Of a stretch of DNA of 64,000 nt, positions 51,485 to 64,000 are shown piece after piece; position 1 is the stretch's first letter; each line of letters opens with the position of its first letter. The position numbers and the translations under genes are program-made. The stretch lies in the NCBI GenBank assembly GCA_964536865.1, contig CAZHYN010000001.1, forward strand, positions 16,195 to 80,194, given 5' to 3'. The notes under the pieces are model-generated. The model saw nothing but the letters and a program-made list of their open reading frames with translations. It was not told the origin of the DNA and searched no databases. The DNA is from an uncultured Planctomycetia bacterium (GTDB lineage Bacteria > Omnitrophota > Gorgyraeia > Duberdicusellales > 4484-171).

Positions 51485-52300
51485 ATTTATACTGAATATT
51501 GGGGCCTAACCTGTAAGCCATTTGAAAATGTAGCTGATCCTAACTTTTTCTATTGTTCTTCCACTCATCGAGAGGCTTTAGCAAGGATGATTTATGCGGT
51601 AAGAGAGAGAAAGTTAGGATTTCTTCTATTGGGCAGATATGGTTTAGGCAAGACTTTTTTGAGCAAGGCCTTAGAGAAAGAGTGTTCCGATAGTAACTAT
51701 AGGTTTGTATCTATCTCCAATCCTCGACTTACTCCTTTAGAACTAGTTAAAGAAATCAGCTATCAGCTGGGAGTAGTTCCAGTAGATCAAAGTTGGACTA
51801 AGGTTGATTATCTTCATAAGATAAAAGAGACTTTGGAGAAAAATTACCAGGAAGGTTTCCATACTGTCATTATAATAGATGAAATGCAAAGTATTGAAAG
51901 TAACGAAGTACTTGAAGAAATAAGGCTATTTTTCAATTTGCAGAAAGAGGTTATCTTTTTTACTTTAATCCTTTTGGCCCAATTATCTTTTAAAGAAAAT
52001 TTAGAGAAGTTTCCTCACTTCAAACAAAGGATACCTATAAGATATGAACTGTCTCCTTTGGATGAAGGAGAAACAAAAAAGTATATAGAGTTCCGCTTAA
52101 AAAAAGCAGGTGCAGCTAAAGAGATTTTCTCTTCCAAGGCATGTAAGCAGATTTATGCTCTAAGTAAAGGAGTTCCTCGCTTGATAAATAATATTTGTGA
52201 CTTAGCTCTTTTAGCAGGGTACTTAGATAGTTTGGAAGTAATCAAAGAAGATACTATCCTTCAAATAGCTCAGGATCTGGGGGAGACACCAAATGATTGA
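51485..52300 (+). CDS. ExeA/GspA/MshM-like AAA ATPase, paralog 2 (probable ATT start)
   Basis: Walker A LLGRYGLGKTFL and Walker B IIIDEMQ. The frame is open from 51482, after an in-frame TGA; the upstream residues YTEYWGLTCKPFENVADPNFFY align with the N-terminus of the 43746 paralog (FKILGFDKEPFSTSPDPDFFY), so the real start lies before the track's ATG at 51587. SD GAGGGAGGTG (51471-51480) sits 4 nt before ATT at 51485. Confidence 0.7.
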   Translation: MYTEYWGLTCKPFENVADPNFFYCSSTHREALARMIYAVRERKLGFLLLGRYGLGKTFLSKALEKECSDSNYRFVSISNPRLTPLELVKEISYQLGVVPVDQSWTKVDYLHKIKETLEKNYQEGFHTVIIIDEMQSIESNEVLEEIRLFFNLQKEVIFFTLILLAQLSFKENLEKFPHFKQRIPIRYELSPLDEGETKKYIEFRLKKAGAAKEIFSSKACKQIYALSKGVPRLINNICDLALLAGYLDSLEVIKEDTILQIAQDLGETPND

Positions 52301-53309
52301 TTTTTCAAAAATTTTTGGAAACGGTAAAGATAAAGAGAAACCTTCATCCCCCATTCATTTTGCTAAGGAACCACCCAAAGAGAAACTGCCTTCTAAGAAG
52401 GAAGCAAAGAAAATTTCCGAGAAAGAAAAAATGTTAGGTGGTATAGATGTGAAGCTTCTATATAAGGAATCTCTTGTCTTAGCAGATAAAATTTTCAGCT
52501 CTTCCCAACCTATTTTACCGGAAGATGTAAAAGAAGTTAAGGAAATAGTTGAGAAAATTGTAGATTGTATAACTAGAGAGGGCGAACGGTTGGTTGAAAT
52601 CACCTTTAATAAGCTCCCCCAGGAGTACCACTTTATTTCTCTGAATATGGTTAACGTGTGTGTTCTATCTCTATATATAGGAATAGCCTTAGGTCTTTCT
52701 CGAGATAAGCTTATAGATCTAGGAATAGCTGCTCTCCTTCATGATTTAGGGATGAAAAAATATCAAAGTATAATTGATCAACCTCGAAAATTAACTCCCC
52801 AAGAGTATAAGGAAATAGAAAATCATCCTATTGTAACTGCCCAGATGCTTTCTCATCTTAAAGAGTTAAGCAGTAAAATCTTAGAGAGTATAAGTCAAGA
52901 ACATGAACGTATGGATGGCTCGGGTTATCCTAAAAATTTAAAGAAAGAAGAAATTGATGAGTTTGCACAAATAATGGCAGTAGTAGATGTTTATGAAGCT
53001 TTAACTCACTCTCGTCCCTATCGCGAGGCTTATAAACCCTCAGAGGCAATTAAAATTATGTTAGAGATGAAAGAAAGATTCAGCTATACAGTGATGAATG
53101 TTTTTTTAGAAAAAATAGGAATTTATCCTAAAGGAAGTTATGTAGAGCTTAACACAAGAGAGATAGCCCAGATAGTACGACAGAATCCTAAACTTCCTTG
53201 TTATCCGGTAATCAAAATAATTTACAATAGTAAAGGAGAAAAATTAGATGAGCCTAAAGAGGTAGATTTGAGCACTAACCCGACAGTTTATATTAGGAAG
53301 TGTCTATAA
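52293..53309 (+). CDS. HD-GYP domain protein (putative c-di-GMP phosphodiesterase)
   Basis: AALLHDLGM and HHERMDGSGYP motifs. Confidence 0.8.
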   Translation: MIDFSKIFGNGKDKEKPSSPIHFAKEPPKEKLPSKKEAKKISEKEKMLGGIDVKLLYKESLVLADKIFSSSQPILPEDVKEVKEIVEKIVDCITREGERLVEITFNKLPQEYHFISLNMVNVCVLSLYIGIALGLSRDKLIDLGIAALLHDLGMKKYQSIIDQPRKLTPQEYKEIENHPIVTAQMLSHLKELSSKILESISQEHERMDGSGYPKNLKKEEIDEFAQIMAVVDVYEALTHSRPYREAYKPSEAIKIMLEMKERFSYTVMNVFLEKIGIYPKGSYVELNTREIAQIVRQNPKLPCYPVIKIIYNSKGEKLDEPKEVDLSTNPTVYIRKCL

Positions 53310-53328
53310 ATTAAAAATTTCCCTTTTT

Positions 53329-54681
53329 ATGAAGAAATTTTCAGTATATATTTTAACAGCATTAATACTTTTTTCTCTTTATAATTTTGTGAAACTAAGG
53401 GTAGAGTTTTCTAATGAGAAAAAAAAAGGAGAGATGCTTAGTCAAAGATTAAAAGAAGCCGAAAGAGAGTCTCAACACCTAAAAGAGCTAATAAATAGTA
53501 GGGAGAAGGAGATAGATAAATTAAAGAGAGAATTAGAGGAACTTAAGTTTCCTCAGCGTCTAAAGAACGCCCTTGCTCAAGCGCAGGACCTTATAAGAAA
53601 ACTGAACGATGATTTAAGTAACTTAAGAAGAGAAAAAACTCGCTTGGAGAAGGAAAATTTTTCCCTTAAAGAGAGAATAGAGCTTAGTAACAAACGAATT
53701 ACTCAATTACTTGCTCAACTGGAGGAGGTAAGAGACAAATTTGAAGTTAGCAAGAAAGAAAGAGGTAGAGTTATAGCAAGAGAAATTACCAGATTGAAGA
53801 AAGCGTTAGAGGAGAAAGACAAGGAAACAGAGGATTTAAGAAAGGATTTAGAGAGGTATAAAGAGAAAGCTTCAGATTTAGAAAGAAAGGCCAAGTTCTT
53901 AAGAGCTCAACTTACTAAAGTTAAAAGAGGATTTTCTAAAGATACTTCAGATAGAAAGAGAGTGAAGCAATTAATGGCTTCTTTGGAGAGGGTAAATAGA
54001 GAAAAAGATACACTTTCTGCGGAGGTTAGACAACTTAGGTTAGAGAGAGAACAGCTACAGAGAAAAATTGATGAATTGTCCAAACTTAATCAAGATTTAC
54101 AGCATCAGGTGAGCCAACTTAAAAAGCAAATAGAGGAAAAAGAAGAGCAGATAGTTAGTCTAGAGAAGAAAATTAAGAAAGGTGTCTCTTCAGTTGATAC
54201 AGAGACAAGACTCCTAAGAGCTAGACTAGCTCTCCAGAAAGAGGAATTTCAAAAAGTAAATACTCTCTATCAAGAACTAAAAGAGCAACTGAAAGATTTA
54301 GCAAAGATTATCTCTGATAAAGAACAAGAGATAGAAAGTAAAGATAAAGAGATAGCTAGATTAAATCAGGAAATTTCTTATTTAAAACTTAGATTAGTAG
54401 ATTTAGAAGATAGGTTGAAGGAGACACAGAGTATTCAGGACGAAGTTTTAAGAAGGTTTTCTGAAGTAGTAGAATTAAATTCTGCTCTTCAAGAAAAGTT
54501 AGGGACGATTTCTACTTTTTTAGGTAAGCCCAGGGTTAAGAAGAAAACAACCTTAAGAGAAGAATTAACTTTACCTGAAGAACCAGAAGTAGTAAGTTCT
54601 TCGGAAGGGGGGGAGAAGGAGCGAGTAGAAAGTTTAAAGAAGCAGGTAGAAGTTATCCTTCATGAAAGTTCACAGGAATAG
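53329..54681 (+). CDS. Membrane-anchored long coiled-coil protein
   Basis: N-terminal TM then about 400 aa of K/E/L/R heptad-like repeats; no catalytic motifs. Confidence 0.55.
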   Translation: MKKFSVYILTALILFSLYNFVKLRVEFSNEKKKGEMLSQRLKEAERESQHLKELINSREKEIDKLKRELEELKFPQRLKNALAQAQDLIRKLNDDLSNLRREKTRLEKENFSLKERIELSNKRITQLLAQLEEVRDKFEVSKKERGRVIAREITRLKKALEEKDKETEDLRKDLERYKEKASDLERKAKFLRAQLTKVKRGFSKDTSDRKRVKQLMASLERVNREKDTLSAEVRQLRLEREQLQRKIDELSKLNQDLQHQVSQLKKQIEEKEEQIVSLEKKIKKGVSSVDTETRLLRARLALQKEEFQKVNTLYQELKEQLKDLAKIISDKEQEIESKDKEIARLNQEISYLKLRLVDLEDRLKETQSIQDEVLRRFSEVVELNSALQEKLGTISTFLGKPRVKKKTTLREELTLPEEPEVVSSSEGGEKERVESLKKQVEVILHESSQE

Positions 54682-55537
54682 TTTTCTCTGGATAAAAACT
54701 TTTTTAAAACTACCACTAAAGATTATCTTTCTTTTAAGTGTAGGGGGAATTTTACTTTTTTCCTATGCCAGCTATTCTAAAACTCCTCAAGAAGAGGCTA
54801 AGGAGCATTATCGCTTAGGGGAGATTTATTACCAGCATGGTCTTTATAAGGAAGCAGAAAGAGAATTTAAGAAAGCCTTACAGTTGCTCAAAAGAGAAGT
54901 TCCTTTGGAAGAGGAAGGGTCATTTCAAAAAGAGGGGAAACCTCCCTCTCCTTCTGAGGAATCTCAGTATATTATCTCCCCGGGCGATGTTCTTTATATA
55001 AGTGTGTGGGAGAATCCTGATTTGACTGGGGAGGTTATCGTACGCCCCGATGGGATGATTTCTTTCCCTCTTATAGATGAGGTAAAAGCAGCTGGGTTAA
55101 CTATATCTGAGTTAGATAAAGAGATGACTGAAATGCTTAAGGAATATATTCGTTTCCCTGACGTTTCTATCTCTCTAAGAGCAATGGGGGGTCAAAGGGT
55201 AATTATTCTCGGAGAAGTAAAAAGTCCTGGAGTTTACTCTTTAAAAGGGAGAAAAACTGTTTTAGAGGCAGTAGCTTTGGCAGGAGGATTTACTAAGGAC
55301 GCAGTTTTAAACAGTGTAATAGTAATAAAAGGAGGGCTCAAAAACCCCCATCCTAAACGGGTAGATTTAGCCAGCGCTCTTAAAAAAGGAAAGATGAAAG
55401 AAGATATTGTGTTAGACTCTCAAGATATAGTCTTTGTTCCAAAAAAGTTTATTGCTGATTTAAATTATTTTTTAACTCAGATTTTGGGTCCTATATCCCG
55501 AGGAGTTTATACTGCCAAGGAAATTCAACGCTGGTAA
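54662..55537 (+). CDS. Polysaccharide export protein (Wza-like)
   Basis: Signal/TM, TPR-like helix, and Poly_export motif region (SPGDVLYISVWENPDLTGEVIVRPDGMISFPLIDEVKAAGLTISEL) followed by SLBB-like segments. Confidence 0.7.
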   Translation: MKVHRNSFLWIKTFLKLPLKIIFLLSVGGILLFSYASYSKTPQEEAKEHYRLGEIYYQHGLYKEAEREFKKALQLLKREVPLEEEGSFQKEGKPPSPSEESQYIISPGDVLYISVWENPDLTGEVIVRPDGMISFPLIDEVKAAGLTISELDKEMTEMLKEYIRFPDVSISLRAMGGQRVIILGEVKSPGVYSLKGRKTVLEAVALAGGFTKDAVLNSVIVIKGGLKNPHPKRVDLASALKKGKMKEDIVLDSQDIVFVPKKFIADLNYFLTQILGPISRGVYTAKEIQRW

Positions 55538-55570: not shown

Positions 55571-55867
55571 GTGATGAGTTTTTGGCAGAAAAAATATAAA
55601 AAGAATCCCAATATGGTATTTAGAAAGATTGCTGATGAGGTAATTTTAGTGCCCATAAGAAATAAAGTAGGTGATTTACAGAGTATCTATACCTTGAATG
55701 AAGTTGGTGCACGTATATGGAAGTTAATTAATGGAAAGAGAGAATTAGCCAAGATTAAGGAGATTCTTTTGGAGGAGTTCAGCGTCGATGTTCCTCGAGT
55801 TGAAGAAGATTTAAAAGCATTTGTACAGAAATTAGAAAGAATAGGAGCAGTAGAGGAAGTTAAGTAG
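55571..55867 (+). CDS. PqqD-family peptide-binding protein (RiPP recognition element)
   Basis: 98 aa; PqqD-like pattern (VFRKIADEVILVP...YTLNEVGARIWKLINGKRELAKIKEILLEEF). Confidence 0.75.
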   Translation: MMSFWQKKYKKNPNMVFRKIADEVILVPIRNKVGDLQSIYTLNEVGARIWKLINGKRELAKIKEILLEEFSVDVPRVEEDLKAFVQKLERIGAVEEVK

Positions 55868-55873: not shown

Positions 55874-56995
55874 ATGGAGTGTATTTATATACCTAAGATT
55901 TCTTATAGGGAGTTTAGTGAATCAATTCACAGGAAAGTAGGAGAAAAACGAATTCCCCTTAATGGATCTATAGAGGTTACTTTGCGTTGTAACTTAAGAT
56001 GTCTACATTGTTACTGTAGTTACAACTCTCAAAAAAAAGAATTAAGTTATAAAGATTTCTGTCGTATTTTTGACGAGATTGCTGATATGGGGTGTTTGTG
56101 GCTGCTTATTACAGGAGGAGAGCCACTCTTAAGAGAGGATTTTTTAAAAATTTATACTTACGCTAAAAAGAAAGGATTTATTATAACACTTTTTACTAAT
56201 GCAACCTTACTTACCCCTTCCATTGTGGATTGTTTAAAAGATTATCCTCCTTTTGCGGTGGAGGTTACTTTGTATGGAATAACTAAATCTACTTATGAGA
56301 AAATTACTCGTATTCCTGGTTCATTTAACCGATGTATAGAAGGTATTCATCTTCTTTTAGAAAGAAAAATTCCTCTTAGGTTAAAAACAGTGGTGATGAA
56401 TTTAAATAAACACGAGCTTTTCAAGATAAAGAGATTTGCCGAAAATTTGGGAGTAGAGTTTAGATTTGACCCTCTTATTAACCCTAAATTAGATGGCTCT
56501 AAAGAACCTTGCAAGTTGAGAATTTCGCCACAAGAAGTTATTGAGCTTGATTTAATGGATAAAAAAAGAAAAGAAGCATGGGAGGAGTTCTGTAAAAAAT
56601 TTCCTTCGCCTATAAACTCAGAATGGCTTTACAGTTGTAGTGCAGGAAGAACTTCTTTCCACATAGATCCCTATGGAAATTTAAGTATTTGTATTATTGA
56701 AAGGTTCCATACCTACAATCTTTTAAAGGGCACATTTAAGGAAGGATGGGAAACTTTTATCCCTGAAAAAATACTCAGTCTTAAAAAAGATAATAGATAC
56801 GAATGCAATCAGTGCCAGTTAAGAGACTTATGCGATCGTTGTCCTGGGTGGTCACAGCTTGAAGCAGGTAACCCTCAGGAAGTGGTAGATTATCTTTGTC
56901 AGATAGCTCATCTAAGAGCCAAAGTGTTTGGTTTTGGCAGAGAAAGAAAGGAGGGGGAGAAAGATGAAAAAGAGAGAAAAAAAATTCTACTCTAA
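55874..56995 (+). CDS. Radical SAM protein with C-terminal SPASM domain
   Basis: CNLRCLHCY (CxxxCxxC) at the N-terminus; C-terminal Cys cluster (CSAGR...CNQCQLRDLCDRCPGW). Confidence 0.8.
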   Translation: MECIYIPKISYREFSESIHRKVGEKRIPLNGSIEVTLRCNLRCLHCYCSYNSQKKELSYKDFCRIFDEIADMGCLWLLITGGEPLLREDFLKIYTYAKKKGFIITLFTNATLLTPSIVDCLKDYPPFAVEVTLYGITKSTYEKITRIPGSFNRCIEGIHLLLERKIPLRLKTVVMNLNKHELFKIKRFAENLGVEFRFDPLINPKLDGSKEPCKLRISPQEVIELDLMDKKRKEAWEEFCKKFPSPINSEWLYSCSAGRTSFHIDPYGNLSICIIERFHTYNLLKGTFKEGWETFIPEKILSLKKDNRYECNQCQLRDLCDRCPGWSQLEAGNPQEVVDYLCQIAHLRAKVFGFGRERKEGEKDEKERKKILL

Positions 56996-57137
56996 ACCTC
57001 AGATAAAAGAAGTTAATTTAGTGCCTCAAGAAGCAGTCCTTCTTGGTTGTAAAACTACAGCTGATCCCAGTGGGAGAACAGTTGGGCGGAATAATTGTGG
57101 TAACAGAGATAACTTTTGTCAAACCGCGGTAAGTTAG
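56964..57137 (+). CDS. Candidate RiPP precursor peptide (57 aa, 3 Cys, C-terminal Ser)
   Basis: MKKREKKFYSKPQIKEVNLVPQEAVLLGCKTTADPSGRTVGRNNCGNRDNFCQTAVS; strong SD GGAGGGGGAG (56951-56960) then ATG; overlaps the 3' end of the rSAM gene in another frame; charged leader-like N-terminus with a Cys/Gly/Asn/Thr-rich C-terminal core. Confidence 0.45.
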   Translation: MKKREKKFYSKPQIKEVNLVPQEAVLLGCKTTADPSGRTVGRNNCGNRDNFCQTAVS

Positions 57138-57166: not shown

Positions 57167-58039
57167 ATGCTAAAGGTAGAAATAGGGGGAGTGGCTATTT
57201 CTCTTTCTTTTGTAGATGGTAAAGGTTGGATACCTCAAGTTAGTAAAGCAATGCATTCTTTTCTTACTAGGAGAAAAAGGTTCGATTTAGCTCTTAAGGT
57301 TCACTGCGGTTTTCTTCCCCATCTGAATGTAAAGAGAGTTGTGTTTAATTCGGGAGGAAACTGGACTCTTTTTAAGGATAGAAATAATAGATTAGTTTTT
57401 TCTCTTACTTCCCCTGCTACCGGTCCTCATCCTTATGCTTTGGCAGTTGTTGATTCTCAATTTAAAGTAGGGAATTTATACCTTAGAGAGCCAAATTACT
57501 TTCTTTCTAAAAAAGCTATTGTGAATCCTTTAGAGTACCCCTTAGATGAGGTTTTAGTAGTGCATCTTCTCTCAAGAAATAGAGGAATACTTCTTCATGG
57601 ATGCGGAATTAAATACAAAGGAGAGGGGCTACTTTTTTTAGGAACTTCGGGAAGAGGAAAAAGCACCATTGCCAATCTTTGGAAGGAAGAGAAAGAAGTC
57701 GCCATTTTAAGTGACGATAGAATTGTTGTCCGCAAGAAAGGCTCCAATTTCTGGATATATGGTACTCCCTGGCACGGAGATGCAAAATTATGTTCTCCTC
57801 AGAAAGTAGTTCTAAAGAAGATATTTTTTCTTAAGCACGGCAAGAAAAATTCGCTTAAAAAGATGAAGTTAAGTGAAATAATTTCTCAGTTAGTTGTCTG
57901 TTCTTTCCCTCCTTTTTGGGATAAGAAAGGTATGAAGTTTATCTTAAGTTTTTGTTCTGATTTAGCAAAAGTTCCTTCTTATGAGCTAAATTTCCTACCT
58001 AACAGGAGTGTTTTGGATCTTATCAAACGTAAGGTGTGA
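57167..58039 (+). CDS. HPr kinase-like (HprK C-terminal domain-related) putative Ser kinase
   Basis: P-loop GLLFLGTSGRGKSTIANLW followed by LSDDRIVV and GTPWHGD, as in the HprK/P C-domain. Confidence 0.65.
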   Translation: MLKVEIGGVAISLSFVDGKGWIPQVSKAMHSFLTRRKRFDLALKVHCGFLPHLNVKRVVFNSGGNWTLFKDRNNRLVFSLTSPATGPHPYALAVVDSQFKVGNLYLREPNYFLSKKAIVNPLEYPLDEVLVVHLLSRNRGILLHGCGIKYKGEGLLFLGTSGRGKSTIANLWKEEKEVAILSDDRIVVRKKGSNFWIYGTPWHGDAKLCSPQKVVLKKIFFLKHGKKNSLKKMKLSEIISQLVVCSFPPFWDKKGMKFILSFCSDLAKVPSYELNFLPNRSVLDLIKRKV

Positions 58040-58536
58040 AGTGCCAAAATTCTGAATTTTTAAAGTTAAGTAAGGATATATTAGAGAAAGGGTTTTCTCT
58101 TCGCTTTCAGGTAAGGGGGGCAAGTATGTACCCTTTTATCAAAAGCGGTGATACCGTGGAAATAGAGCCAAAGAATATCTCCAAAATAAACTATGCGGAT
58201 ATTATCCTTTACGCCAATTACGAAGGAAAAATTGTAATCCATCGAGTAGTAAAAAAAATCAAGAAGAATAATGAAACTATCCTAGCAACTAGAGGAGACT
58301 TTCTGCCACCTTCCTTAAGAGAGTTTGTTCCTTCAGAGAAAGTATTAGGTAAAGTTGTAGTTATTAGAAAGGCAAATAGGATGTTTAGAATAGATAGGGG
58401 ATTTTTAAGGCTGTTGAATATTGTATATACCAAACTTTTACCTATTATTAGGTGGGGACATAGTTTTGGTGCCAAACTGCTAAAGTTTACCCCGAGCCAC
58501 AGAAAGTTACCTGTGACATTACATCGGGGTGGATAA
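58036..58536 (+). CDS. S26/S24-family (signal peptidase I / LexA-like) serine peptidase
   Basis: GASMYPFIKSGD matches the catalytic Ser box (GDSMxP-like); candidate Lys at IVIHRVVKK. Confidence 0.6.
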   Translation: MKCQNSEFLKLSKDILEKGFSLRFQVRGASMYPFIKSGDTVEIEPKNISKINYADIILYANYEGKIVIHRVVKKIKKNNETILATRGDFLPPSLREFVPSEKVLGKVVVIRKANRMFRIDRGFLRLLNIVYTKLLPIIRWGHSFGAKLLKFTPSHRKLPVTLHRGG

Positions 58537-58576: not shown

Positions 58577-59731
58577 ATGCGATTGTTATATCGGGGTGGC
58601 CGGGGTTTACTAAAGCAAATTAAAAATATTATGAGGGGAGGGGATAACTTTATTACTGTATTGAGCTGTTCTATCTGGAATAAGGAGAAAAGTGGAGAGA
58701 TAGAGGAAGTAATAAAGAATAATTTAGATTGGGATTATGTATTAAGGAAATCCCGTAAAGAGGGGGTTTCTTCTTTGATTTATTATTGCTTAAAGAAATT
58801 CGAGTTACAAAAATATTTGCCTTTTAAGACCTTAAAAACCTTAGAGGAAGCCTATTATAAAAATTCTCTAAGGAATATTATTATGATTAGTGAAACAAAA
58901 AAGGTATTAGAATCTTTTAAAAAAGAAGGTATAGAATCAATTATTCTTAAAGGAGTTTTCTTGGCAGAGAAAATTTATAGGAATATTGCTTTGAGAGAGA
59001 TGACAGATGTTGATATTCTAATAAGGAGAAAAAATGTCAAGAAAGCAAATAGAATTTTAAATTCTCTAGGATACCCAACTCCGAAATACTATGAAGATCT
59101 TTTGAAAATATCTTCTTCCCTTAATACTTTAATGTATAAAGGTAATATACGAGTCCATCTTCACTGGCATCTTATAAATTCAACTTGGCCTTTAAACTTT
59201 TTAATAGAAAAAATTAGTATAGAAAGAATCTTTGAATACGCCAAACCTATAAAGATTGATACTTTAGATACTCTAACTTTGTCCAATGAGCATCTTTTAA
59301 TTTACCTTTGCTATCATCTTTTTAATCACTCTTTTGACAGGCTGATTCTTCTGGTAGATATTCTCGGCTTGTTAAATTCTTATAGTATTGACTGGAATTT
59401 TGTTATAGAAGAGGCAGAACGTTTTAAGCTTTCATTTATTCTCTATTATGTTTTATCTTTTATATCTCAAAAAAAGGAAGAAAAGGTTCCTTACTTAGAA
59501 AGATTGAAACCATCTAAATCTTATCTCAAAAAACTTCCTCCTTCTTCTTTTACTTCTTATTTTATATACCTTCTTCTTCAAAAGGGATTTAAAAAGAAGA
59601 TAAAGTTCCTTATAAATACCATTTTCCCTCCTCCCTGTGTAGTAGCTCATAGTTTCTCCATTTCTCCAAAGGAAGTAACCAGAGCTCATTATTTTTTTCG
59701 TCTTATTAAACCTTTTCTTAAATTCTTCTAA
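58577..59731 (+). CDS. PF14907-type nucleotidyltransferase family protein
   Basis: MTDVDILIRR nucleotidyltransferase motif; 384 aa; this family is often linked to HprK-like kinases and PqqD in lasso-type loci; the true start may be the downstream Met at about 58631. Confidence 0.6.
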   Translation: MRLLYRGGRGLLKQIKNIMRGGDNFITVLSCSIWNKEKSGEIEEVIKNNLDWDYVLRKSRKEGVSSLIYYCLKKFELQKYLPFKTLKTLEEAYYKNSLRNIIMISETKKVLESFKKEGIESIILKGVFLAEKIYRNIALREMTDVDILIRRKNVKKANRILNSLGYPTPKYYEDLLKISSSLNTLMYKGNIRVHLHWHLINSTWPLNFLIEKISIERIFEYAKPIKIDTLDTLTLSNEHLLIYLCYHLFNHSFDRLILLVDILGLLNSYSIDWNFVIEEAERFKLSFILYYVLSFISQKKEEKVPYLERLKPSKSYLKKLPPSSFTSYFIYLLLQKGFKKKIKFLINTIFPPPCVVAHSFSISPKEVTRAHYFFRLIKPFLKFF

Positions 59732-59754: not shown

Positions 59755-60567
59755 TTAGGAGTAAAGGAGACTGCCGTGTTTTTTAGCTTGCCTTAGAGCT
59801 AATTTAAAGGAAAGGAGAGCTATGGGAAGGAGGATAAGAAAGAAGAGAGTGAGGCAGGCTATTTCAACTTTTACTTCTTTTAGAGAAGCCCCCATAGCTA
59901 TACTCTTCCTCATACCTCTTAAAGCATAGGTTATAGGTAGAAGGTAGGAAATTTTTTGTAACACTTGCGGTAATACCTTAATAGGAAAGTAAACTCCTCC
60001 TAAAAATCTTGAAATCCCATTTAATACCCAATTAATAGGGTTTCCTCTCTTAAACACAAGAATGAAGCTTGCTGATAGAACTCCTAAGGCACTGAAAGAG
60101 AGAATGGTTAAGAGTAAAATTACTAGGGAGGAGATGAGATTTATCTTACTTAGATTGAATCCAAAAATAAGCCACCCTAAAAAAAGATACACCATTACCC
60201 TTAAAGATACAAAGAAAAAGTTCCATACCGCTCCTAAAAGTAAAATAGTACCAATACTAGTAGGAGACATAAGAAGGATTTCTAATGTTCCTTCGGACTG
60301 TTCATAGTGGATGACTTGGCTGAAACTATTTAGGGCAGCGGAGAGATATCCACTGAAGGCAAGTCCAATTAAGACAAAGGAAAAGTAGTCCCCTCCAAAT
60401 TCTTCTAAGTATTTAGAAGCTCCCTCTCCAAATAGCTTGGAGACGAAAAAGAAAGTAGCAACCGAGGCAAAAATAGAGATAAAATCTAAGAGGAAAGACA
60501 AACGGTAGCTTGAATTAATAAGAAAATCTCTCTTTAAAAAAGCAAGTAGCTTCCTAAGAAATATCAT
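59755..60567 (-). CDS. ABC-2 type transporter permease
   Basis: 270 aa with 6 TM segments; translationally coupled to the upstream ATPase. Confidence 0.75.
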   Translation of the reverse strand: MIFLRKLLAFLKRDFLINSSYRLSFLLDFISIFASVATFFFVSKLFGEGASKYLEEFGGDYFSFVLIGLAFSGYLSAALNSFSQVIHYEQSEGTLEILLMSPTSIGTILLLGAVWNFFFVSLRVMVYLFLGWLIFGFNLSKINLISSLVILLLTILSFSALGVLSASFILVFKRGNPINWVLNGISRFLGGVYFPIKVLPQVLQKISYLLPITYALRGMRKSIAMGASLKEVKVEIACLTLFFLILLPIALLSFKLALRQAKKHGSLLYS

Positions 60568-61270
60568 TCTTTATTATTTCTCCATATAAGTCTTTTAAAG
60601 AAGTTTGAATCTCCTTTATATTTTTAATTAGGAGAATTTCTCCCCTATTCATAATAGCAATTCTGTCAGCGACAGTTTCTGCTTCTTCCAAAAAATGGGT
60701 AGCAAAGAGGATTGTTTTTTTGAACTCTTTCGCTAATCTCTGCATAAGCTTTCTAAATTCTTTAGCCGTTAAGGGATCCAAACTTTTGGTAGGCTCATCC
60801 ATTATAATTATTTCCTTTTCCAGAATAAGAGTTCTTAAAAGGGAAAGGCGATGTTTGGTTCCTGTAGAATATTGCCAGAAAGGTTTGTCTAAGTCCTCTA
60901 CTTCTAAAATTTGTGAATAATTCTTTATTCTCTCTCTAATTTGATGGGAAGAAAGATTATAAATTGTAGCAAAGAATTCCAAATTCTGCTTTGCAGTAAG
61001 TTGAGGATAAAATCCATAAGTTTCCCCAGAAAAATAAGCAACCCCCCCTTTAACCTTTATCATTCCTCTTTCAGGAAGAATTAATCCACAAATTATTTTT
61101 AGAAGAGTAGTTTTACCTGCACCGTTAGGACCTAATAGAGCAAGCGCCTCCCCTCTATTTACTTTAAGATGTACTGAATTTAGAGCATAGATCCTGCGTG
61201 GGAGAAGAAAAAAATGGAAGATATCTCTCTTTATAAGAAAAGACTTGCTTAGCCCCTCTACTTCAATCAT
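60554..61270 (-). CDS. ABC transporter ATP-binding protein
   Basis: Walker A GPNGAGKTTLL, signature-like STGTKHRLSL, Walker B IIIMDEPT. Confidence 0.85.
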   Translation of the reverse strand: MIEVEGLSKSFLIKRDIFHFFLLPRRIYALNSVHLKVNRGEALALLGPNGAGKTTLLKIICGLILPERGMIKVKGGVAYFSGETYGFYPQLTAKQNLEFFATIYNLSSHQIRERIKNYSQILEVEDLDKPFWQYSTGTKHRLSLLRTLILEKEIIIMDEPTKSLDPLTAKEFRKLMQRLAKEFKKTILFATHFLEEAETVADRIAIMNRGEILLIKNIKEIQTSLKDLYGEIIKNDIS

Positions 61271-61346
61271 TTTCTAAAACCATACCAGAGACCTTATATC
61301 TTGTCAACGGTAAGAAAGTTGTGTTAAAATTTTAGAGAGTAAAAAG

Positions 61347-62744
61347 ATGAAAAAAAGAGTTTTACACCTTTCCTTATTACTAATCTCTATATCTGTAGTA
61401 GTCTTTCTACTAAGTTCTCCTTGCTTTCCCCAAGAAGAAAAAAGGTTCCAAATTGTAGGAGAGATTTTTGGTGTACCAGTACCTATTGGAAATTACTACT
61501 TTGCTAAAAGAGTAGTTTTAACTTTCAATGCCAAGTGGCGTCCTACACCTAAAGATGAGGAGGAATTGGAAGATTTGGTCTGGCAGGAACTTATTCTTTC
61601 TTATGAGGCTTATCGTCGGGGGATAGAAGCTAGTAGCAAGGAGATAGATGAGCATATAGATAAGATACTAAAAGCAGAGAAGGTAAATTTCGATTGGCGG
61701 AAAGAAAAAGAAAAGTTTGAAGAGTGGACAAAAAATAAATTGGGCGTATCTCCTCAGGTATTTAGAAATCAGATAGAACATCTAATAAAGCTAGAGAAGC
61801 TCCAGCAACAAGTAATAGAGAGTATTGAACCTGAAGTTACCGAGGAGGAAGCCTACCAGAAATTTCTCGATGAGTGTAATACTCTTTCTGTAGAGTTAGT
61901 ACAGTTTGATGAATTAAAAGAGGCAGAAAAGTTTTATAAGGAAGTTTCAAAACCTCAGGAAGAAGGAGCGTTAGAGAAACTTATTTGGGAAGATCTTCTC
62001 CTTTCCTATGAAGCATTTAAAAGAAAAGTAGAGGTAACTAAAGAAGAAATAGAAAAAAATATTTATAGGTATTTGAGAGGAAGGGAGGTTAGATTTAACT
62101 GGAAGAAAGATGAGAGAAAATTTAAAACGTGGCTTAAAGGTAATTTAGGTTTATCTCAAGAGGAATTCAAGAAATTTATTATTCACTTTGCAAAGATTGA
62201 TAAATTGAGGCAGTTAATCTATAGAAAAGAAGCTCCTCCTATTAGTGAGGAGAGATATACATATTTTCTCAGAGAGAAAAGAGATATCGAGAGAGCTTAT
62301 CAAAGGTTCTCTAAAGAATTTGGCTTTCCTCAAAATGCAGTATTGATATTTCCTACTTTCCAAGATGCTGAGGTATTTTATAAACGATTTAAGAGAGAAG
62401 CTACTCCTTGGGAAGATAGAAAAAGAAAAAAGCCTGATAGATTTAAAAGGCCGGGTTTCGTAGCTTTAGATTTTCTAATTCATATGTGGGGATTCAAAAG
62501 AGAAGATGCTTACAGGATGATAGAAAGAAAGGTTGGAGATATTTACCCTCCCGCCCCTATTTATAAAGGATATGGAGTATTTAAAATTCTTCGTGTTCGT
62601 AAAGCTAATCCTTCTGATTTTAGCAAGCGAAAAAAATACTATTTTGATAAGCTTAAGAGGATCAAAAAATATCAAAGATTTAAAGAATGGCTAAATTCTC
62701 TGAAGGAGGAAGCTAATATAAAAGTCTATAGTGATAAATTTTAA
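61347..62744 (+). CDS. Secreted protein with two tandem SurA-N/PpiD-like chaperone repeats
   Basis: Signal peptide; two units of about 115 aa share W(Q/E)(E/D)L(I/L)LSYEA...V(N/R)F(D/N)W(R/K)K(E/D)...(F/W)...LG(V/L)S. Confidence 0.5.
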   Translation: MKKRVLHLSLLLISISVVVFLLSSPCFPQEEKRFQIVGEIFGVPVPIGNYYFAKRVVLTFNAKWRPTPKDEEELEDLVWQELILSYEAYRRGIEASSKEIDEHIDKILKAEKVNFDWRKEKEKFEEWTKNKLGVSPQVFRNQIEHLIKLEKLQQQVIESIEPEVTEEEAYQKFLDECNTLSVELVQFDELKEAEKFYKEVSKPQEEGALEKLIWEDLLLSYEAFKRKVEVTKEEIEKNIYRYLRGREVRFNWKKDERKFKTWLKGNLGLSQEEFKKFIIHFAKIDKLRQLIYRKEAPPISEERYTYFLREKRDIERAYQRFSKEFGFPQNAVLIFPTFQDAEVFYKRFKREATPWEDRKRKKPDRFKRPGFVALDFLIHMWGFKREDAYRMIERKVGDIYPPAPIYKGYGVFKILRVRKANPSDFSKRKKYYFDKLKRIKKYQRFKEWLNSLKEEANIKVYSDKF

Positions 62745-62794
62745 ATTATATAAGGGTTTTACTTTTTCCTAGATATGATATAATTTTAAAAGAA

Positions 62795-64000
62795 ATGAAT
62801 CATCGCGAATTATCTTTAAGAGATTATCTAAGAATAATTCGCAAGAGAAAGTTTATTATAATTTCCTCTTTTATCGTCTTTATTGGTTTTTCTCTGTTTT
62901 ACACCTCAGGACAACTTCCCATTTACGAAGCTACCACGACTGTAAAGATTGAGGAAAGAAAGACAATAGCTGGTCTCCTTACTGAATGGATTGTTTATAC
63001 TCCTGGAGATATAATGGAGACACAAGTTAAAATTATAAAAGGTTTTCCTGTCCTAAAGAAGGTAGCTTTAAAACTAGGTTTAGTAAAGGAGGAAGATCCT
63101 GTTTCTAAAATTTATGAGATAGTAGGAAGGCTTCAGTCTCAAATCTCTACCGAAAGGGTTGGAAAAACTAACATTATCAAGATCACTGCTATCTCTCATG
63201 ATCCCGAAGAGGCAATGAAATTAGCAAATACAGTAGCTGGTGTTTACATTGAAGAGAATCTTTATGAAAAGAATAAGCAGGCAAGAACAGTAAGGCTATT
63301 TATTGAGGAACAGTTAACTACGCTTAAAGAGAGACTCCATAGAGCGGAAGAGAAGATAAAAAAATTTAGTGAGGAGGAGGAAAATATTCAGATTGCTGAG
63401 GAGGTTCAGAAAAAACTAAACGATCTTGAGTTCCAGTTAGCTTCTCTTCTTCAAAAATATACAGAAAAACATCCAAAAGTAATTCAAATAAAGGAACAGA
63501 TAAGAGAGTTGAGAGAGCAATCAAAGAAATTTTCTGCTAAAGCGTTAGAGTACGCACGTCTTAAGAGGGAAGTAGAAGTAAATAAAAAATTATATGCGAT
63601 GTTGAGAGAAAAATTAGAAGAAGCAAGAATTACCGAGGCAGAAAAGGTTCCCGATGTAAGTGTTGTAGATCCAGCTGTTCTTCCTAAAACTCCCATATCT
63701 TCCTCAGGAAAGTTAGGGGTTTTTGTAGGAGGAGTGTTAGGGTTAGTGGTAGGGATAATTTTAGCTTTTATTGCTGAAAATTTAGATACATCTATTGGGA
63801 CAATTGAAGATGTGGAAAGTATTGTGGGTTTGCCTGTTTTAGGAGTTGTTCCTTCTATAATCAGAGAAGTTGAAATAAAGAGAAGTTTCTTTAAAAAAAT
63901 TAGAGATACAATCTTTCCTCCCAAGATAGATGAATCTACAGAAAGGTACGTAAGATTAATTGTTTGTTATAAACCTACTTCCTCAGCAGCAGAAAGCTAT
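62795..64000 (+). CDS. Polysaccharide chain-length determinant / Wzc-GumC-like protein (5' part; continues past window end)
   Basis: MNHRELSLRDYLRIIRKRKFIIISSFIVFIGFSL (Wzz N-terminal TM), long periplasmic coiled-coil region, second TM (GVFVGGVLGLVVGIILAFIAE). Absent from the ORF track because no stop codon lies within the window. Confidence 0.7.
   Translation, partial: MNHRELSLRDYLRIIRKRKFIIISSFIVFIGFSLFYTSGQLPIYEATTTVKIEERKTIAGLLTEWIVYTPGDIMETQVKIIKGFPVLKKVALKLGLVKEEDPVSKIYEIVGRLQSQISTERVGKTNIIKITAISHDPEEAMKLANTVAGVYIEENLYEKNKQARTVRLFIEEQLTTLKERLHRAEEKIKKFSEEEENIQIAEEVQKKLNDLEFQLASLLQKYTEKHPKVIQIKEQIRELREQSKKFSAKALEYARLKREVEVNKKLYAMLREKLEEARITEAEKVPDVSVVDPAVLPKTPISSSGKLGVFVGGVLGLVVGIILAFIAENLDTSIGTIEDVESIVGLPVLGVVPSIIREVEIKRSFFKKIRDTIFPPKIDESTERYVRLIVCYKPTSSAAESY

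What the first reader, a model, noticed from the sequence alone, without database searches (positions are those of the whole stretch)
52293..64000. c-di-GMP-linked exopolysaccharide export genes (HD-GYP, Wza-like, Wzc-like) interleaved with the RiPP cassette
An HD-GYP phosphodiesterase, a long coiled-coil membrane protein and a Wza-like OM exporter precede the RiPP cassette. A Wzz/Wzc-GumC-like chain-length determinant follows it. A PilZ protein lies at 27204. The peptide-modification cassette is inserted between the two halves of the Wza/Wzc export pair. This suggests either a horizontally inserted island or a coordinated surface-polymer and peptide export programme. ExeA-like ATPases also occur in PEP-CTERM EPS loci (TIGR03015-type), which offers an alternative framework for the whole 43-64 kb region.
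Basis: inference. Interest (0 to 1): 0.5.

Follow-up and report, generated by a model that had tools for sequence, protein, structure and literature searches.

The report
Polysaccharide export locus carrying peptide-modification module
In this uncultured Omnitrophota genome, a set of genes that makes a small modified peptide sits between the two halves of a sugar-polymer export machine, and the same pairing recurs in many relatives and other phyla, so it is an old partnership that gets reshuffled, not a recent foreign insertion.

Summary
52293-64000 encodes an HD-GYP protein, a coiled-coil membrane protein, a Wza-family (OPX) protein, a peptide-modification cassette, a divergent ABC-2 exporter, a SurA_N-like protein and a Wzc tyrosine-autokinase co-polymerase. 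An identical public contig extends the window. It shows Wzy, Wzx, two methyltransferases and a GT2 downstream, so this is a Wzx/Wzy-type polysaccharide locus.

The recent-island reading fails. Composition is uniform, and no tRNA, integrase or bracketing repeats are present. The interleaved order recurs in a 94% strain and in relatives with 46-60% OPX identity. Of 42 well-flanked Omnitrophota OPX loci, 21 carry the cassette within 10 kb, upstream or downstream, and a WOR-3 contig does too.

Cassette history is nevertheless uncoupled from the core. OPX identity tracks Wzc and HD-GYP (r 0.69, 0.77) but not the radical SAM enzyme (r 0.04). The cassette is an exchangeable module that repeatedly sits at this locus.

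New details:
- An unannotated 57-aa precursor lies at 56964-57137. All ~90 relatives end in Ser or Thr.
- The "HprK-like" gene has an HprK/PEPCK kinase fold.
- The OPX lacks Wza's outer-membrane helix (Class-3-like).
- The HD-GYP lacks two metal ligands.
- PEP-CTERM models are best hits but all fall below cut-off, and no exosortase was seen.

The parts
43493..43729 (+). MerR-type HTH regulator, first gene of the envelope locus (follows carAB)
   Evidence: PF13411 MerR_1, E 4.9e-11. A MerR homologue precedes the secretin or ATPase/OPX block in many relatives.
43746..45226 (+). ExeA/TIGR03015-like AAA ATPase (43746-44606) and GspB/GspC-like protein (44567-45226)
   Evidence: TIGR03015 171.9 bits, below the 324.5 cut-off. 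AAA_22 hit. Weak T2SSC and T2SSB matches.
45223..50870 (+). Two tandem pairs, each a secretin (45223-46962, 48158-49915) followed by a coiled-coil + TPR protein (46962-48161, 49893-50870)
   Evidence: Secretin, Secretin_N and STN domains. PilQ and GspD models score 243-249 bits, below their cut-offs. A secretin lies upstream of the OPX gene in 19 of 46 relatives with at least 7 kb upstream.
50886..51464 (+). Conserved 192-aa protein with an N-terminal hydrophobic segment (read by eye; no signal-peptide tool was run); no family match
   Evidence: No Pfam or NCBIfam hit. Syntenic homologues at 39-51% identity in about 30 loci.
51587..52300 (+). Second TIGR03015-like AAA ATPase, overlapping the start of the HD-GYP gene
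   Evidence: TIGR03015 137.4 bits, below the 324.5 cut-off. The ATPase-HD-GYP pair recurs next to OPX genes and next to cassettes.
52293..53309 (+). HD-GYP domain protein with no receiver or sensor domain; Asn118 and Glu203 at two metal-ligand positions
   Evidence: HD_5 118.9 bits. Best solved relatives are V-cGAP3 (5z7c) and PmGH (4mcw). Column counts over 55 homologues. Pairwise identity co-varies with the OPX protein, r 0.77.
53329..54681 (+). Membrane-anchored 450-aa coiled-coil protein
   Evidence: Only coiled-coil-type matches. Syntenic homologues at 29-33% identity between the HD-GYP and OPX genes in 14 loci, 10 of them among the 13 closest OPX relatives.
54662..55537 (+). OPX (Wza-family) protein: N-terminal hydrophobic helix, TPR, linker, Poly_export, one SLBB domain; no Wza_C helix and no lipobox Cys
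   Evidence: Pfam. TIGR03027 128.5 bits, below the 180 cut-off. AlphaFold2 model pLDDT 81. Foldseek aligns about 170 residues to short Wza 7xfd, Class-3 WzaB 9n9a and Wza 2j58.
55571..55867 (+). PqqD-family peptide chaperone (RiPP recognition element)
   Evidence: PF05402 59.4 bits. Scores below the cut-offs of all named PqqD subfamilies.
55874..56995 (+). Radical SAM/SPASM enzyme
   Evidence: Radical_SAM 73.7 bits. Near-full-length alignments to MftC and NirJ2 models, below their cut-offs. C-terminal CxxC-rich stretch.
56964..57137 (+). Unannotated 57-aa precursor peptide MKKREKKFYSKPQIKEVNLVPQEAVLLGCKTTADPSGRTVGRNNCGNRDNFCQTAVS, with AAGGAGG 6 nt upstream of its ATG (10 nt counting from the last G of the AAGGAGG core); overlaps the end of the radical SAM gene
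   Evidence: Sequence. Homologues in the same slot. A leader HMM finds 99 peptide entries (about 90 distinct after removing alternative-start fragments), all ending in Ser (87) or Thr (12), and 82 have three Cys after residue 25. No Pfam or NCBIfam family.
57167..58039 (+). ScmC-family (PF27840) P-loop kinase with an HprK/PEPCK fold
   Evidence: PF27840 in precomputed annotation. Weak Hpr_kinase_C and TIGR04355 hits. Invariant H144, K165, D183, D184. AlphaFold2 pLDDT 92; the 50 best-ranked Foldseek PDB hits listed are all PEPCK and HprK/P.
58036..58536 (+). SipW/archaeal-type signal peptidase I homologue (S24/S26); candidate leader peptidase
   Evidence: TIGR02228 57.4 bits, above the 51.85 cut-off. 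Peptidase_S24 26.3 bits. GASMYP and IHRV motifs are visible in the sequence.
58577..59731 (+). NTP_transf_5 (PF14907) uncharacterised nucleotidyltransferase with a D-x-D motif (TDVDIL)
   Evidence: PF14907 182.3 bits. Sequence. Functional precedent is PsmN of pseudomycoidin (PMC6993621). Homology to PsmN itself was not tested.
59755..61270 (-). ABC-2 permease (59755-60567) and ABC ATPase (60554-61270), transcribed divergently from the SurA-like/Wzc genes
   Evidence: ABC2_membrane and ABC_tran domains; DrrA/DrrB-like. The same pair in the same orientation follows the cassette in L015, L031, L034, L042-L044, L046, L049, L083-L086, L093 and L107.
61279..61330 (.). Back-to-back promoter-like sites in the 76-nt divergent intergenic region
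   Evidence: Two 10-of-12 sigma-70-like matches with TG extensions, one on each strand. These are consensus matches only.
61347..62744 (+). 465-aa protein with an N-terminal hydrophobic segment (read by eye; no signal-peptide tool was run) and faint SurA_N similarity
   Evidence: SurA_N_3 and SurA_N_2 score below their cut-offs. Homologues lie directly after the OPX gene (L003, L005, L006, L021, L041, L086, L167) or after the cassette's ABC genes (window, L085, L093, L107).
62795..64000 (+). Wzc-type PCP-2a co-polymerase with a tyrosine-autokinase domain; cut by the window end, 634 aa on the identical contig L001
   Evidence: Wzz and GNVR domains. Full length: TIGR01007 152.5 bits, above the 108 cut-off, plus AAA_31. 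Walker A and B motifs and the C-terminal tail YTYPYYYKYRYY. L001 matches the window over 8825 nt with no mismatch.

Best explanation
The stretch 52.3-64 kb is the middle of a same-strand cell-envelope locus of about 28 kb (43.5 to at least 71 kb) that is conserved in Omnitrophota.

**Core pathway.** The core is a Wzx/Wzy-dependent polysaccharide pathway.
- Wzx flips lipid-linked repeat units, and Wzy polymerises them.
- A Wzc-type co-polymerase with a tyrosine autokinase controls polymerisation and export.
- A short OPX protein forms the periplasmic part of the exit route. It has no outer-membrane helix, so a separate, unidentified outer-membrane component is needed.
- A TIGR03015-like ATPase and an HD-GYP protein are co-inherited parts of this core. 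They probably couple export to a cyclic-dinucleotide signal. The window's HD-GYP lacks two metal ligands, so it may bind the nucleotide more than hydrolyse it.

**Peptide module.** Between the OPX and Wzc genes lies a complete peptide-maturation module.
- A 57-aa precursor is bound by a PqqD chaperone.
- A radical SAM/SPASM enzyme cross-links it at its three Cys residues.
- The ScmC kinase (HprK fold) phosphorylates its invariant C-terminal Ser.
- The NTP_transf_5 enzyme decorates that phosphate.
- A SipW-type peptidase removes the leader.
- The divergent ABC-2 transporter exports the product.

**Relation between the two.** The module is not a recent island. It is an exchangeable unit that has been placed next to OPX/Wzc genes many times, at either side of the OPX gene and in several phyla. 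This argues for selection on linkage, meaning co-regulation or a shared product on the cell surface.

**Shown here:** gene identities, folds, the precursor family, synteny and composition.

**Inferred:** every enzymatic step, and the functional coupling.
For: **Gene families.**

**Downstream genes.** Wzy, Wzx, GT2 and two methyltransferases lie on a contig identical to the window.

**OPX architecture.**, using the class definitions in PMC9603273.

**Wzc.** Kinase motifs and the Tyr-rich tail.

**Synteny.**
- Identical order in a strain with 94% OPX identity.
- The same interleaved order in L009, L015, L013, L027 and L086. The cassette lies upstream of an adjacent OPX-Wzc pair in 12 or more loci.
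- 21 of 42 well-flanked loci carry the cassette within 10 kb.
- WOR-3 contig L084 has cassette - ABC - OPX - Wzc.
- 9 of 25 cassette-anchored metagenome loci hold OPX or Wzc genes, and 13 of 25 hold some locus gene.

**No island signature.** Uniform GC, GC3, codon use and tetranucleotides. No tRNA. No bracketing repeats.

**Co-inheritance.** OPX~Wzc r 0.69, OPX~HD-GYP r 0.77, radical SAM~ScmC r 0.69, all p 0.0005.

**Precursor.** About 90 homologues, all ending in Ser or Thr.

**Kinase.** HprK/PEPCK fold and an invariant His-Lys-Asp-Asp set. These match the motif of lasso-peptide kinases that phosphorylate a conserved C-terminal Ser (PMC9266682).

**PsmN precedent.** PsmN is needed to add hexose to that phosphate (PMC6993621).
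Against: - There is no expression, product or mutant data.
- Half of the well-flanked OPX loci have no cassette within 10 kb, and 18 of 80 have OPX and Wzc directly adjacent. The polysaccharide pathway therefore does not need the cassette.
- Cassette and OPX histories are uncorrelated (r 0.04 and 0.17). This is what unlinked accessory genes in a recombination hot spot would also show.
- At least one cassette (Aminicenantia, L083) has no EPS gene in the 10 kb available.
- No initiating phosphoglycosyl transferase and no outer-membrane conduit have been identified in the 71 kb.
- The HD-GYP substrate is unknown. Its best solved relative is a cGAMP phosphodiesterase, and two ligand positions are substituted.
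- Homology of the NTP_transf_5 gene to PsmN was not tested directly.
- ScmC-HprK similarity is weak in sequence (E 0.02-0.06 against solved structures).
Confidence: 0.66

Rival explanations
1. Co-location without coupling. Polysaccharide loci are variable regions that collect accessory genes. On this view the cassette makes an independent secreted peptide, such as an antimicrobial or a signal, with no functional tie to the polymer.
For: - Cassette history is uncoupled from OPX history (r 0.04, p 0.36).
- The cassette is absent from half of the well-flanked loci, and its position is variable.
- The downstream glycan genes are the most compositionally atypical part of the region (z up to 3.8), as expected for a variable region.
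- A Y1 transposase lies next to the cassette in L085.
- The cassette has its own exporter.
Against: - A cassette within 10 kb of an OPX gene in 21 of 42 loci is far above what chance gives (my estimate is about 1% per cassette, assuming a genome of roughly 2 Mb; the only complete relative, CP070807.1, is 1.82 Mb).
- The linkage recurs in WOR-3 and in unclassified metagenome lineages with different gene orders.
- The ATPase/HD-GYP pair and the SurA-like gene travel with the cassette as well as with the OPX gene.
Confidence: 0.25
2. Recent horizontal island. The cassette was inserted into a formerly adjacent Wza-Wzc pair in this lineage.
For: - Wza and Wzc are directly adjacent in 18 of 80 relatives.
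- The ABC genes are on the opposite strand.
- The closest species-level relatives (L003, L167; 66-68% OPX identity) carry a different cassette subtype in a different order.
Against: - GC, GC3, codon use and tetranucleotide composition of 55.5-61.3 kb are the same as in the flanks.
- No tRNA, integrase or bracketing repeats are present.
- The order is identical in a strain with 94% OPX identity.
- The order and cassette type are the same in L009, L015 and L086, at 53-60% OPX identity and 54-64% radical SAM identity.
Confidence: 0.04
3. The whole 43-71 kb region is an XrtA/PEP-CTERM exosortase-type EPS system.
For: XrtA-associated models are the best or near-best NCBIfam hits for the two ATPases (TIGR03015), the OPX protein (TIGR03027) and the Wzc N-terminal half (TIGR03007).
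Against: - All of these score well below their curated cut-offs: 171.9 and 137.4 against 324.5, 128.5 against 180, 156.8-160 against 278.85, and 111.2 against 230.65.
- No exosortase, PrsK/PrsR regulator or PrsT was found among the ORFs scanned: all large ORFs from 43.5 kb to 70 kb, plus 19 of the 37 large ORFs upstream of 43.5 kb. PEP-CTERM-tagged proteins were not searched for.
Confidence: 0.05

Closest known systems
Wzx/Wzy-dependent polysaccharide export with a Class-3 OPX protein (Myxococcus xanthus WzaB/WzcB/WzpB; PMC9603273, PMC12819527)
   Same: - Short OPX protein with Poly_export plus one SLBB domain and no Wza_C helix. The fold matches WzaB (9n9a) and Wza D1-D2.
- Wzc-type PCP with a tyrosine-kinase domain and a Tyr-rich tail.
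- Wzy and Wzx encoded beside them.
   Different: - No beta-barrel porin gene of the WzpB/PgaA type is recognisable in the locus.
- The OPX protein has an N-terminal hydrophobic helix plus a TPR extension and no lipobox Cys, whereas WzaB needs lipidation.
- Two secretins, TIGR03015-like ATPases and an HD-GYP are syntenic.
- A peptide-maturation module sits between the OPX and PCP genes.
E. coli Wza-Wzc (group 1 capsule / colanic acid)
   Same: An OPX plus PCP-2a pair. The aligned part of the OPX protein is 30-32% identical to Wza. Wzc models match over the whole length.
   Different: - Wza domains D3 and D4 (the outer-membrane alpha-helical barrel) are absent.
- The genes are not adjacent.
- The E. 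coli Wzc equivalog cut-offs are not met (196 bits against 1068).
C-terminal Ser phosphorylation and glycosylation of lasso peptides (paeninodin PadeK; pseudomycoidin PsmK/PsmN; PMC6993621, PMC9266682)
   Same: - A PqqD-type chaperone, an HprK-fold kinase with a His-Lys-Asp-Asp set, an uncharacterised NTP-transferase-family gene and an ABC exporter.
- Precursors with a conserved C-terminal Ser.
   Different: - There is no lasso cyclase and no B2 protease. A radical SAM/SPASM enzyme and a SipW-type peptidase take their place.
- The precursors are Cys-containing and have a different leader.
- The module is embedded in a polysaccharide locus.
SynChlorMet (SCM) cassette and GeoRSP system (NCBIfam TIGR04248-04251, TIGR04302-04303; Pfam PF27840 ScmC)
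   Same: The same parts list: a PqqD relative, radical SAM/SPASM enzyme(s) and a ScmC-family protein. PF27840 annotates the kinase-like gene.
   Different: - All SCM and GeoRSP equivalog models score far below their cut-offs: ScmD 26.7 against 100, ScmC 17.1 against 125, ScmE/F 71-73 against 400, GeoRSP 35 against 100 and 65 against 400.
- The NTP_transf_5 gene, the S26 peptidase and the EPS context are not part of those definitions, as far as I know from memory.
ExeA/ExeB (GspA/GspB)-assisted secretin assembly, and MshM/MshL
   Same: An AAA_22 ATPase followed by a protein with weak T2SS-B/C similarity, then a secretin, at 43746-46962.
   Different: - No other T2SS or type IV pilus genes are in the locus.
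- The secretin is duplicated, and each copy is paired with a coiled-coil TPR protein.
- A second ATPase of the same family is tied to the HD-GYP and OPX genes instead.

Membership tests
OPX (Wza) family, Class 1 (E. coli Wza type) | Poly_export (PES) domain plus SLBB domain(s) | tested here: met
   PF02563 87.1 bits. SLBB and SLBB_2 43-46 bits. Foldseek probability 1.0 to Wza structures.
OPX (Wza) family, Class 1 (E. coli Wza type) | C-terminal outer-membrane-spanning Wza_C amphipathic helix of about 35 residues (PMC9603273) | tested here: not met
   The model ends in helices of 13 and 6 residues with low confidence. The alignment to 2j58 covers 174 of 356 residues. This architecture corresponds to Class 3.
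OPX (Wza) family, Class 1 (E. coli Wza type) | Lipoprotein signal with a lipobox Cys | tested here: not met
   There is no Cys in the first 45 residues.
Class-3 OPX translocon (WzaB/WzpB type) | Partner integral outer-membrane beta-barrel porin encoded nearby | tested here: inconclusive
   No gene in 43.5-71 kb matches a porin family. Only sequence-family scans were run, and the rest of the genome was not seen.
PCP-2a / Wzc tyrosine autokinase | Wzz and GNVR periplasmic region plus a cytoplasmic BY-kinase domain with Walker A/B motifs and a C-terminal Tyr cluster | tested here: met
   Wzz 36.8 bits, GNVR 52.4 bits, and TIGR01007 152.5 bits above the 108 cut-off. Motifs NPQEGKS and ILFDSPP, and eight Tyr in the last 40 residues. 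The first Asp of Walker A' is Ala.
Wzx/Wzy-dependent pathway | MOP-family flippase, Wzy-type polymerase and glycosyltransferases in the locus | tested here: met
   Polysacc_synt_3 275 bits, Wzy_C 35.9 bits and GT2 126.8 bits, on a contig identical to the window.
Wzx/Wzy-dependent pathway | Initiating phosphoglycosyl transferase (WbaP/WecA type) | tested here: not met
   None was found up to extended coordinate 71270. Sequence beyond that could not be reached.
HD-GYP cyclic-dinucleotide phosphodiesterase | HD_5 domain with the HD dyad and the GYP motif | tested here: met
   HD_5 118.9 bits. H150-D151, G211-Y212-P213, H178, H204 and D232 are conserved in 47-55 of 55 homologues.
HD-GYP cyclic-dinucleotide phosphodiesterase | Full metal-ligand set (first His, and both His of the HHE motif) | tested here: not met
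   Asn118 stands where 40 of 55 relatives have His. Glu203 stands where solved enzymes have His; it is Glu in 37 of 55 relatives. Activity and substrate were not testable.
XrtA/PEP-CTERM exopolysaccharide system | Curated equivalog scores for the ATPase, export protein, chain-length determinant and tyrosine kinase | tested here: not met
   TIGR03015 171.9 and 137.4 against 324.5. TIGR03027 128.5 against 180. TIGR03007 156.8-160 against 278.85. TIGR03018 111.2 against 230.65.
XrtA/PEP-CTERM exopolysaccharide system | Exosortase gene and PEP-CTERM-tagged proteins | tested here: inconclusive
   No exosortase was found among the ORFs scanned: all large ORFs from 43.5 kb to 70 kb, plus 19 of the 37 large ORFs upstream of 43.5 kb. 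The other upstream ORFs and the partial last gene were not scanned, the rest of the 359-kb contig was not available, and PEP-CTERM-tagged proteins were not searched for.
HprK-type peptide kinase (PadeK/PsmK-like) | [quoted passage not shown] | tested here: met
   AlphaFold2 pLDDT 92. The 50 best-ranked Foldseek PDB hits listed are all PEPCK and HprK/P, E 5e-6 to 1e-4. H144, K165, D183 and D184 are invariant in 27 sequences. The motif is taken from PMC9266682.
HprK-type peptide kinase (PadeK/PsmK-like) | Substrate precursor with a conserved C-terminal Ser | tested here: met
   All 99 precursor entries (about 90 distinct peptides) end in Ser (87) or Thr (12). Phosphorylation itself cannot be tested with these tools.
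SynChlorMet cassette / GeoRSP system | NCBIfam equivalog cut-offs for ScmC, ScmD, ScmE/F and GeoRSP PqqD/rSAM | tested here: not met
   Scores of 17-73 bits against cut-offs of 100-400. Only the broader Pfam ScmC family (PF27840) applies.
Genomic island (recent horizontal insertion) | Atypical composition, a flanking tRNA or repeats, a mobility gene, and an empty site in close relatives | tested here: not met
   The strain with 94% OPX identity has the same order.

The most novel reading that the evidence does not exclude
The peptide module and the polysaccharide pathway may make one product. The cross-linked peptide, phosphorylated on its invariant C-terminal Ser and extended on that phosphate by the NTP_transf_5 enzyme, would serve as a primer, anchor or cap for a glycan built by the neighbouring Wzx/Wzy/GT genes. 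Alternatively it would be a glycan-decorated peptide exported by the ABC-2 transporter, a transporter type otherwise used for glycoconjugates. That would be a ribosomal peptide-phosphoglycan conjugate on the surface of Omnitrophota and other uncultured phyla. The same locus would then also need a new outer-membrane route for a helix-less OPX protein, and the syntenic secretins are candidates.
Probability: 0.12. Interest if true: 0.85.

Novelty: new variant of a known kind. Interest (0 to 1): 0.55.

Why it matters
Taken one at a time, the genes are ordinary. What is unusual is the recurrent physical pairing, across phyla, of a peptide-maturation module with OPX/Wzc polysaccharide export genes, an HD-GYP protein and TIGR03015-like ATPases. 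I found no description of this pairing in the searchable literature.

- **A testable link.** It connects ribosomal peptide natural products to surface-polymer biology in phyla that have almost no cultured members.
- **A defined precursor family.** The precursors have a conserved leader, three Cys and an invariant C-terminal Ser or Thr. Together with an HprK-fold kinase, this extends the C-terminal phospho-(glyco)sylation chemistry of lasso peptides to radical SAM peptides.
- **An open export question.** A helix-less OPX protein in conserved synteny with secretins, and with no recognisable porin, leaves open how the polymer crosses the outer membrane.
- **A note for genome miners.** An apparent insertion inside an EPS locus can be a selected, exchangeable partner and not a recent island.

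Tried and rejected
- **Exact look-up of the SurA-like protein** to extend the window found nothing. The ABC ATPase worked instead, but only 7.3 kb beyond the window could be reached.
- **c-di-GMP riboswitch or any other Rfam family** in 42-64 kb: none. There was one chance-level plant miRNA hit.
- **tRNA genes** in 40-64 kb: none.
- **Direct or inverted repeats bracketing the cassette:** only short chance-level matches.
- **Anti-phage defence models** for the kinase, NTP transferase, ATPase and HD-GYP: none.
- **Precursor against Pfam and NCBIfam:** no family.
- **Sequence-only search of solved structures.** For the NTP_transf_5 protein it found nothing useful. For ScmC it gave only marginal HprK hits, so a structure prediction and fold search were used instead.
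- **Literature searches** for SynChlorMet, PF14907, HPr kinase + radical SAM + PqqD + nucleotidyltransferase, HprK + RiPP + SPASM, and Omnitrophota + RiPP returned no description of this cassette or of its EPS linkage.
- **The PilZ gene at 27204** as part of the system: rejected, because it sits among rny, ymdB and dxs, 25 kb away.
- **Secretins as the OPX protein's outer-membrane partner:** considered and left open. Only 19 of 46 loci with enough upstream sequence have a secretin there, and loci with the cassette upstream of the OPX gene have none within 10 kb.

Full report
**What is in the sequence**

| Coordinates | Strand | Gene | Key evidence |
|---|---|---|---|
| 52293-53309 | + | HD-GYP protein | HD_5, 118.9 bits |
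| 53329-54681 | + | 450-aa coiled-coil protein | N-terminal hydrophobic helix |
| 54662-55537 | + | OPX protein | TPR, Poly_export, one SLBB domain |
| 55571-55867 | + | PqqD-family chaperone | |
| 55874-56995 | + | Radical SAM/SPASM enzyme | |
| 57167-58039 | + | HprK-like protein | Pfam ScmC (PF27840) in public annotation |
| 58036-58536 | + | SipW/archaeal-type signal peptidase I homologue | TIGR02228 above cut-off |
| 58577-59731 | + | NTP_transf_5 protein | 182 bits |
| 59755-61270 | - | ABC-2 permease and ATPase | |
| 61347-62744 | + | 465-aa protein | faint SurA_N similarity |
| 62795 onward | + | Wzz + GNVR protein | runs off the window |

- The PilZ gene at 27204-27578 is real. It lies between ymdB and dxs, among housekeeping genes.
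- Upstream, after carAB, the locus begins at 43493. It holds a MerR regulator, an ExeA/TIGR03015-like ATPase, a GspB/C-like protein, two tandem pairs of secretin plus coiled-coil-TPR protein, a conserved 192-aa protein and a second TIGR03015-like ATPase.
- The organism is an uncultured Omnitrophota bacterium. The OPX protein is 100% identical to a protein on a 359-kb public contig, and nearly all its relatives come from that phylum.

**Downstream extension**

A public contig (L001) matches window 55176-64000 without a single mismatch and runs 7.3 kb further.

- On it the Wzz/GNVR protein is 634 aa.
- It passes the curated tyrosine-autokinase domain model (TIGR01007, 152.5 bits against a cut-off of 108).
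- It has Walker A and B motifs and eight Tyr in its last 40 residues.
- It is followed by a Wzy_C polymerase, a MOP-family flippase, a methyltransferase, a GT2 glycosyltransferase, a second methyltransferase and an amine oxidase.

This is a Wzx/Wzy-type polysaccharide locus.

**Island or resident?**

- GC, GC3, synonymous codon use and tetranucleotide composition of the cassette cannot be told apart from the flanks or from the housekeeping genes.
- The atypical stretch is 63-71 kb, which holds the glycan genes.
- There is no tRNA, no bracketing repeat and no mobility gene.

A tblastn map of the window's proteins onto 80 genome loci anchored on OPX homologues shows three arrangements.

- **OPX - cassette - Wzc**, as in the window: L009, L015, L013 and L027, plus the metagenome locus L086.
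- **Cassette upstream:** HD-GYP - cassette - ABC(-) - MerR - ATPase - OPX - Wzc - Wzy, in 12 or more loci.
- **OPX directly followed by Wzc**, with no cassette nearby.

Among 42 loci with at least 6 kb on both sides, 21 have two or more cassette genes within 10 kb of the OPX gene. A strain with 94% OPX identity has exactly the window's order.

Outside the phylum:
- A WOR-3 contig has cassette - ABC(-) - OPX - Wzc.
- An unclassified contig has glycan genes - cassette - ABC(-) - SurA-like.
- An Aminicenantia contig has the cassette with no EPS gene in the sequence available.
- In the reverse direction, of 25 metagenome loci of at least 7 kb anchored on the ScmC gene, 9 hold an OPX or Wzc gene and 13 hold at least one gene of this locus type.

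A recent insertion is therefore not supported, and chance co-location is very unlikely.

**Evolutionary coupling**

| Gene pair | Spearman r of pairwise identity across loci | p |
|---|---|---|
| OPX and Wzc | 0.69 | 0.0005 |
| OPX and HD-GYP | 0.77 | 0.0005 |
| Radical SAM and ScmC | 0.69 | 0.0005 |
| OPX and radical SAM | 0.04 | 0.36 |
| OPX and ScmC | 0.17 | 0.22 |

- The closest species-level relatives (66-68% OPX identity) carry a different cassette subtype, with 31% radical SAM identity. It has a different internal order and adds a sigma-54-type DNA-binding protein, a histidine kinase and a TPR membrane protein.
- More distant OPX relatives (L009, L015, L043, L086) carry the window's subtype, at 54-64% radical SAM identity.
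- The OPX/Wzc/HD-GYP genes thus form a co-inherited core. The cassette is a coherent unit that is exchanged or reshuffled, yet keeps landing at this locus.

**The cassette is a complete peptide-maturation module**

- The 172-nt gap between the radical SAM and ScmC genes holds an unannotated 57-codon gene, at 56964-57137. A strong ribosome-binding site precedes it.
- A leader-only HMM recovers 99 peptide entries (about 90 distinct peptides) from the fetched loci. They share the leader KP.I..V.L.PEEAVL..CK and usually have three Cys.
- Every one of them ends in Ser (87) or Thr (12), most often Gly-Ser.
- No curated family covers these peptides.
- The ScmC protein folds with high confidence (pLDDT 92, pTM 0.90). 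The 50 best-ranked hits among solved structures are all PEPCK and HprK/P.
- His144, Lys165, Asp183 and Asp184 are invariant. This matches the His-Lys-Asp-Asp motif of lasso-peptide kinases that phosphorylate a conserved C-terminal Ser (PMC9266682).
- In pseudomycoidin, an uncharacterised NTP-transferase-family protein, PsmN, is needed to add hexoses to that phosphate (PMC6993621). The window's PF14907 protein has the corresponding D-x-D motif. Its homology to PsmN was not tested.

Proposed pathway, inferred by analogy with these systems:
1. The PqqD chaperone binds the leader.
2. The radical SAM/SPASM enzyme cross-links the Cys residues.
3. ScmC phosphorylates the C-terminal Ser.
4. The NTP_transf_5 enzyme decorates the phosphate.
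5. The SipW-type peptidase removes the leader.
6. The ABC-2 transporter exports the product.

**Corrections to the export and signalling parts**

- **OPX.** The model (pLDDT 81) has a hydrophobic helix, two TPR helices, a disordered linker, and Poly_export plus one SLBB domain. It ends in two short helices. About 170 residues align to short Wza proteins, to Class-3 WzaB and to domains D1-D2 of E. coli Wza. By the published definitions (PMC9603273) this is Class-3 architecture with no outer-membrane helix. It also has no lipobox Cys.
- **Outer-membrane route.** No porin family member is recognisable in the locus. A secretin lies upstream in 19 of 46 informative relatives, so the outer-membrane route remains open.
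- **HD-GYP.** The HD dyad, His178, His204, Asp232 and GYP are present. Asn118 stands where 40 of 55 relatives have His, and Glu203 stands where solved enzymes have the first His of the HHE motif. Its best solved relative is a cGAMP-specific enzyme. No GGDEF or EAL gene (among the ORFs scanned) and no riboswitch was found nearby. "c-di-GMP-linked" is therefore a reasonable inference, not a demonstrated feature.
- **PEP-CTERM.** These models are top or near-top hits for four proteins but all fall below their curated cut-offs, and no exosortase was seen among the ORFs scanned.

**Verdict**

This is not a recent island, and it is not demonstrably a PEP-CTERM system. It is a conserved Wzx/Wzy-type envelope locus whose core (ATPase, HD-GYP, OPX, Wzc) is repeatedly joined by an exchangeable peptide-maturation module.
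- Whether the peptide and the polymer share regulation, a destination or even a covalent product is unknown. The last option is the most novel reading that the evidence does not exclude.

Noticed in passing
window 56964-57137 (+): An unannotated 57-aa precursor peptide gene overlaps the stop of the radical SAM gene. Public gene calls on identical or related contigs miss it in most cases: L001 and L166 list no gene there, while L083 and L085 do list a 53-57-aa gene.
   Followed up: yes
window 2416-9497: gyrB, dnaN and dnaA on the - strand, followed by yidC on the + strand. The window starts at the chromosomal replication origin region, and the envelope locus lies about 36-64 kb from it. Nearly all its genes point away from the origin.
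   Followed up: partly
extended coordinates 63000-71270 (L001 1-8270, reverse strand): The Wzy/Wzx/methyltransferase/GT2 stretch is the most compositionally atypical part of the 71 kb (tetranucleotide z up to 3.8, GC 0.30-0.32). This fits a variable, exchangeable glycan-specificity region.
   Followed up: partly
window 45223-50870: A tandem duplication of a two-gene unit, secretin plus coiled-coil/TPR protein. Some relatives have one unit and others two. The function of the coiled-coil/TPR partner is unknown.
   Followed up: no
L003 12403-19018 and L167 12401-20855: In the closest species-level relatives the cassette is a different subtype. It carries a 622-aa multi-pass membrane protein with C-terminal TPR repeats, a sigma-54 DNA-binding-domain protein and a HAMP histidine kinase, so the module has its own regulators there.
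   Followed up: partly
L085 7243-8094: A Y1 (IS200/IS605-type) transposase gene lies directly upstream of the cassette in an unclassified genome. This hints at how the module moves.
   Followed up: no
window 27204-27578: A stand-alone PilZ-domain gene overlaps the end of ymdB, downstream of the RNase Y gene and upstream of dxs. This rny-ymdB-pilZ arrangement may be worth a look on its own.
   Followed up: no
window 61279-61330: Two good back-to-back promoter-like sites (10 of 12 matches, both with a TG extension) lie in the 76-nt gap between the ABC ATPase gene and the SurA-like gene.
   Followed up: no
L084 2993-4624 and L085 10900-12546: In WOR-3 and in an unclassified lineage, the S24/S26 peptidase and the NTP_transf_5 protein are fused into one protein of 543-548 aa. 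This supports their acting on the same substrate.
   Followed up: partly
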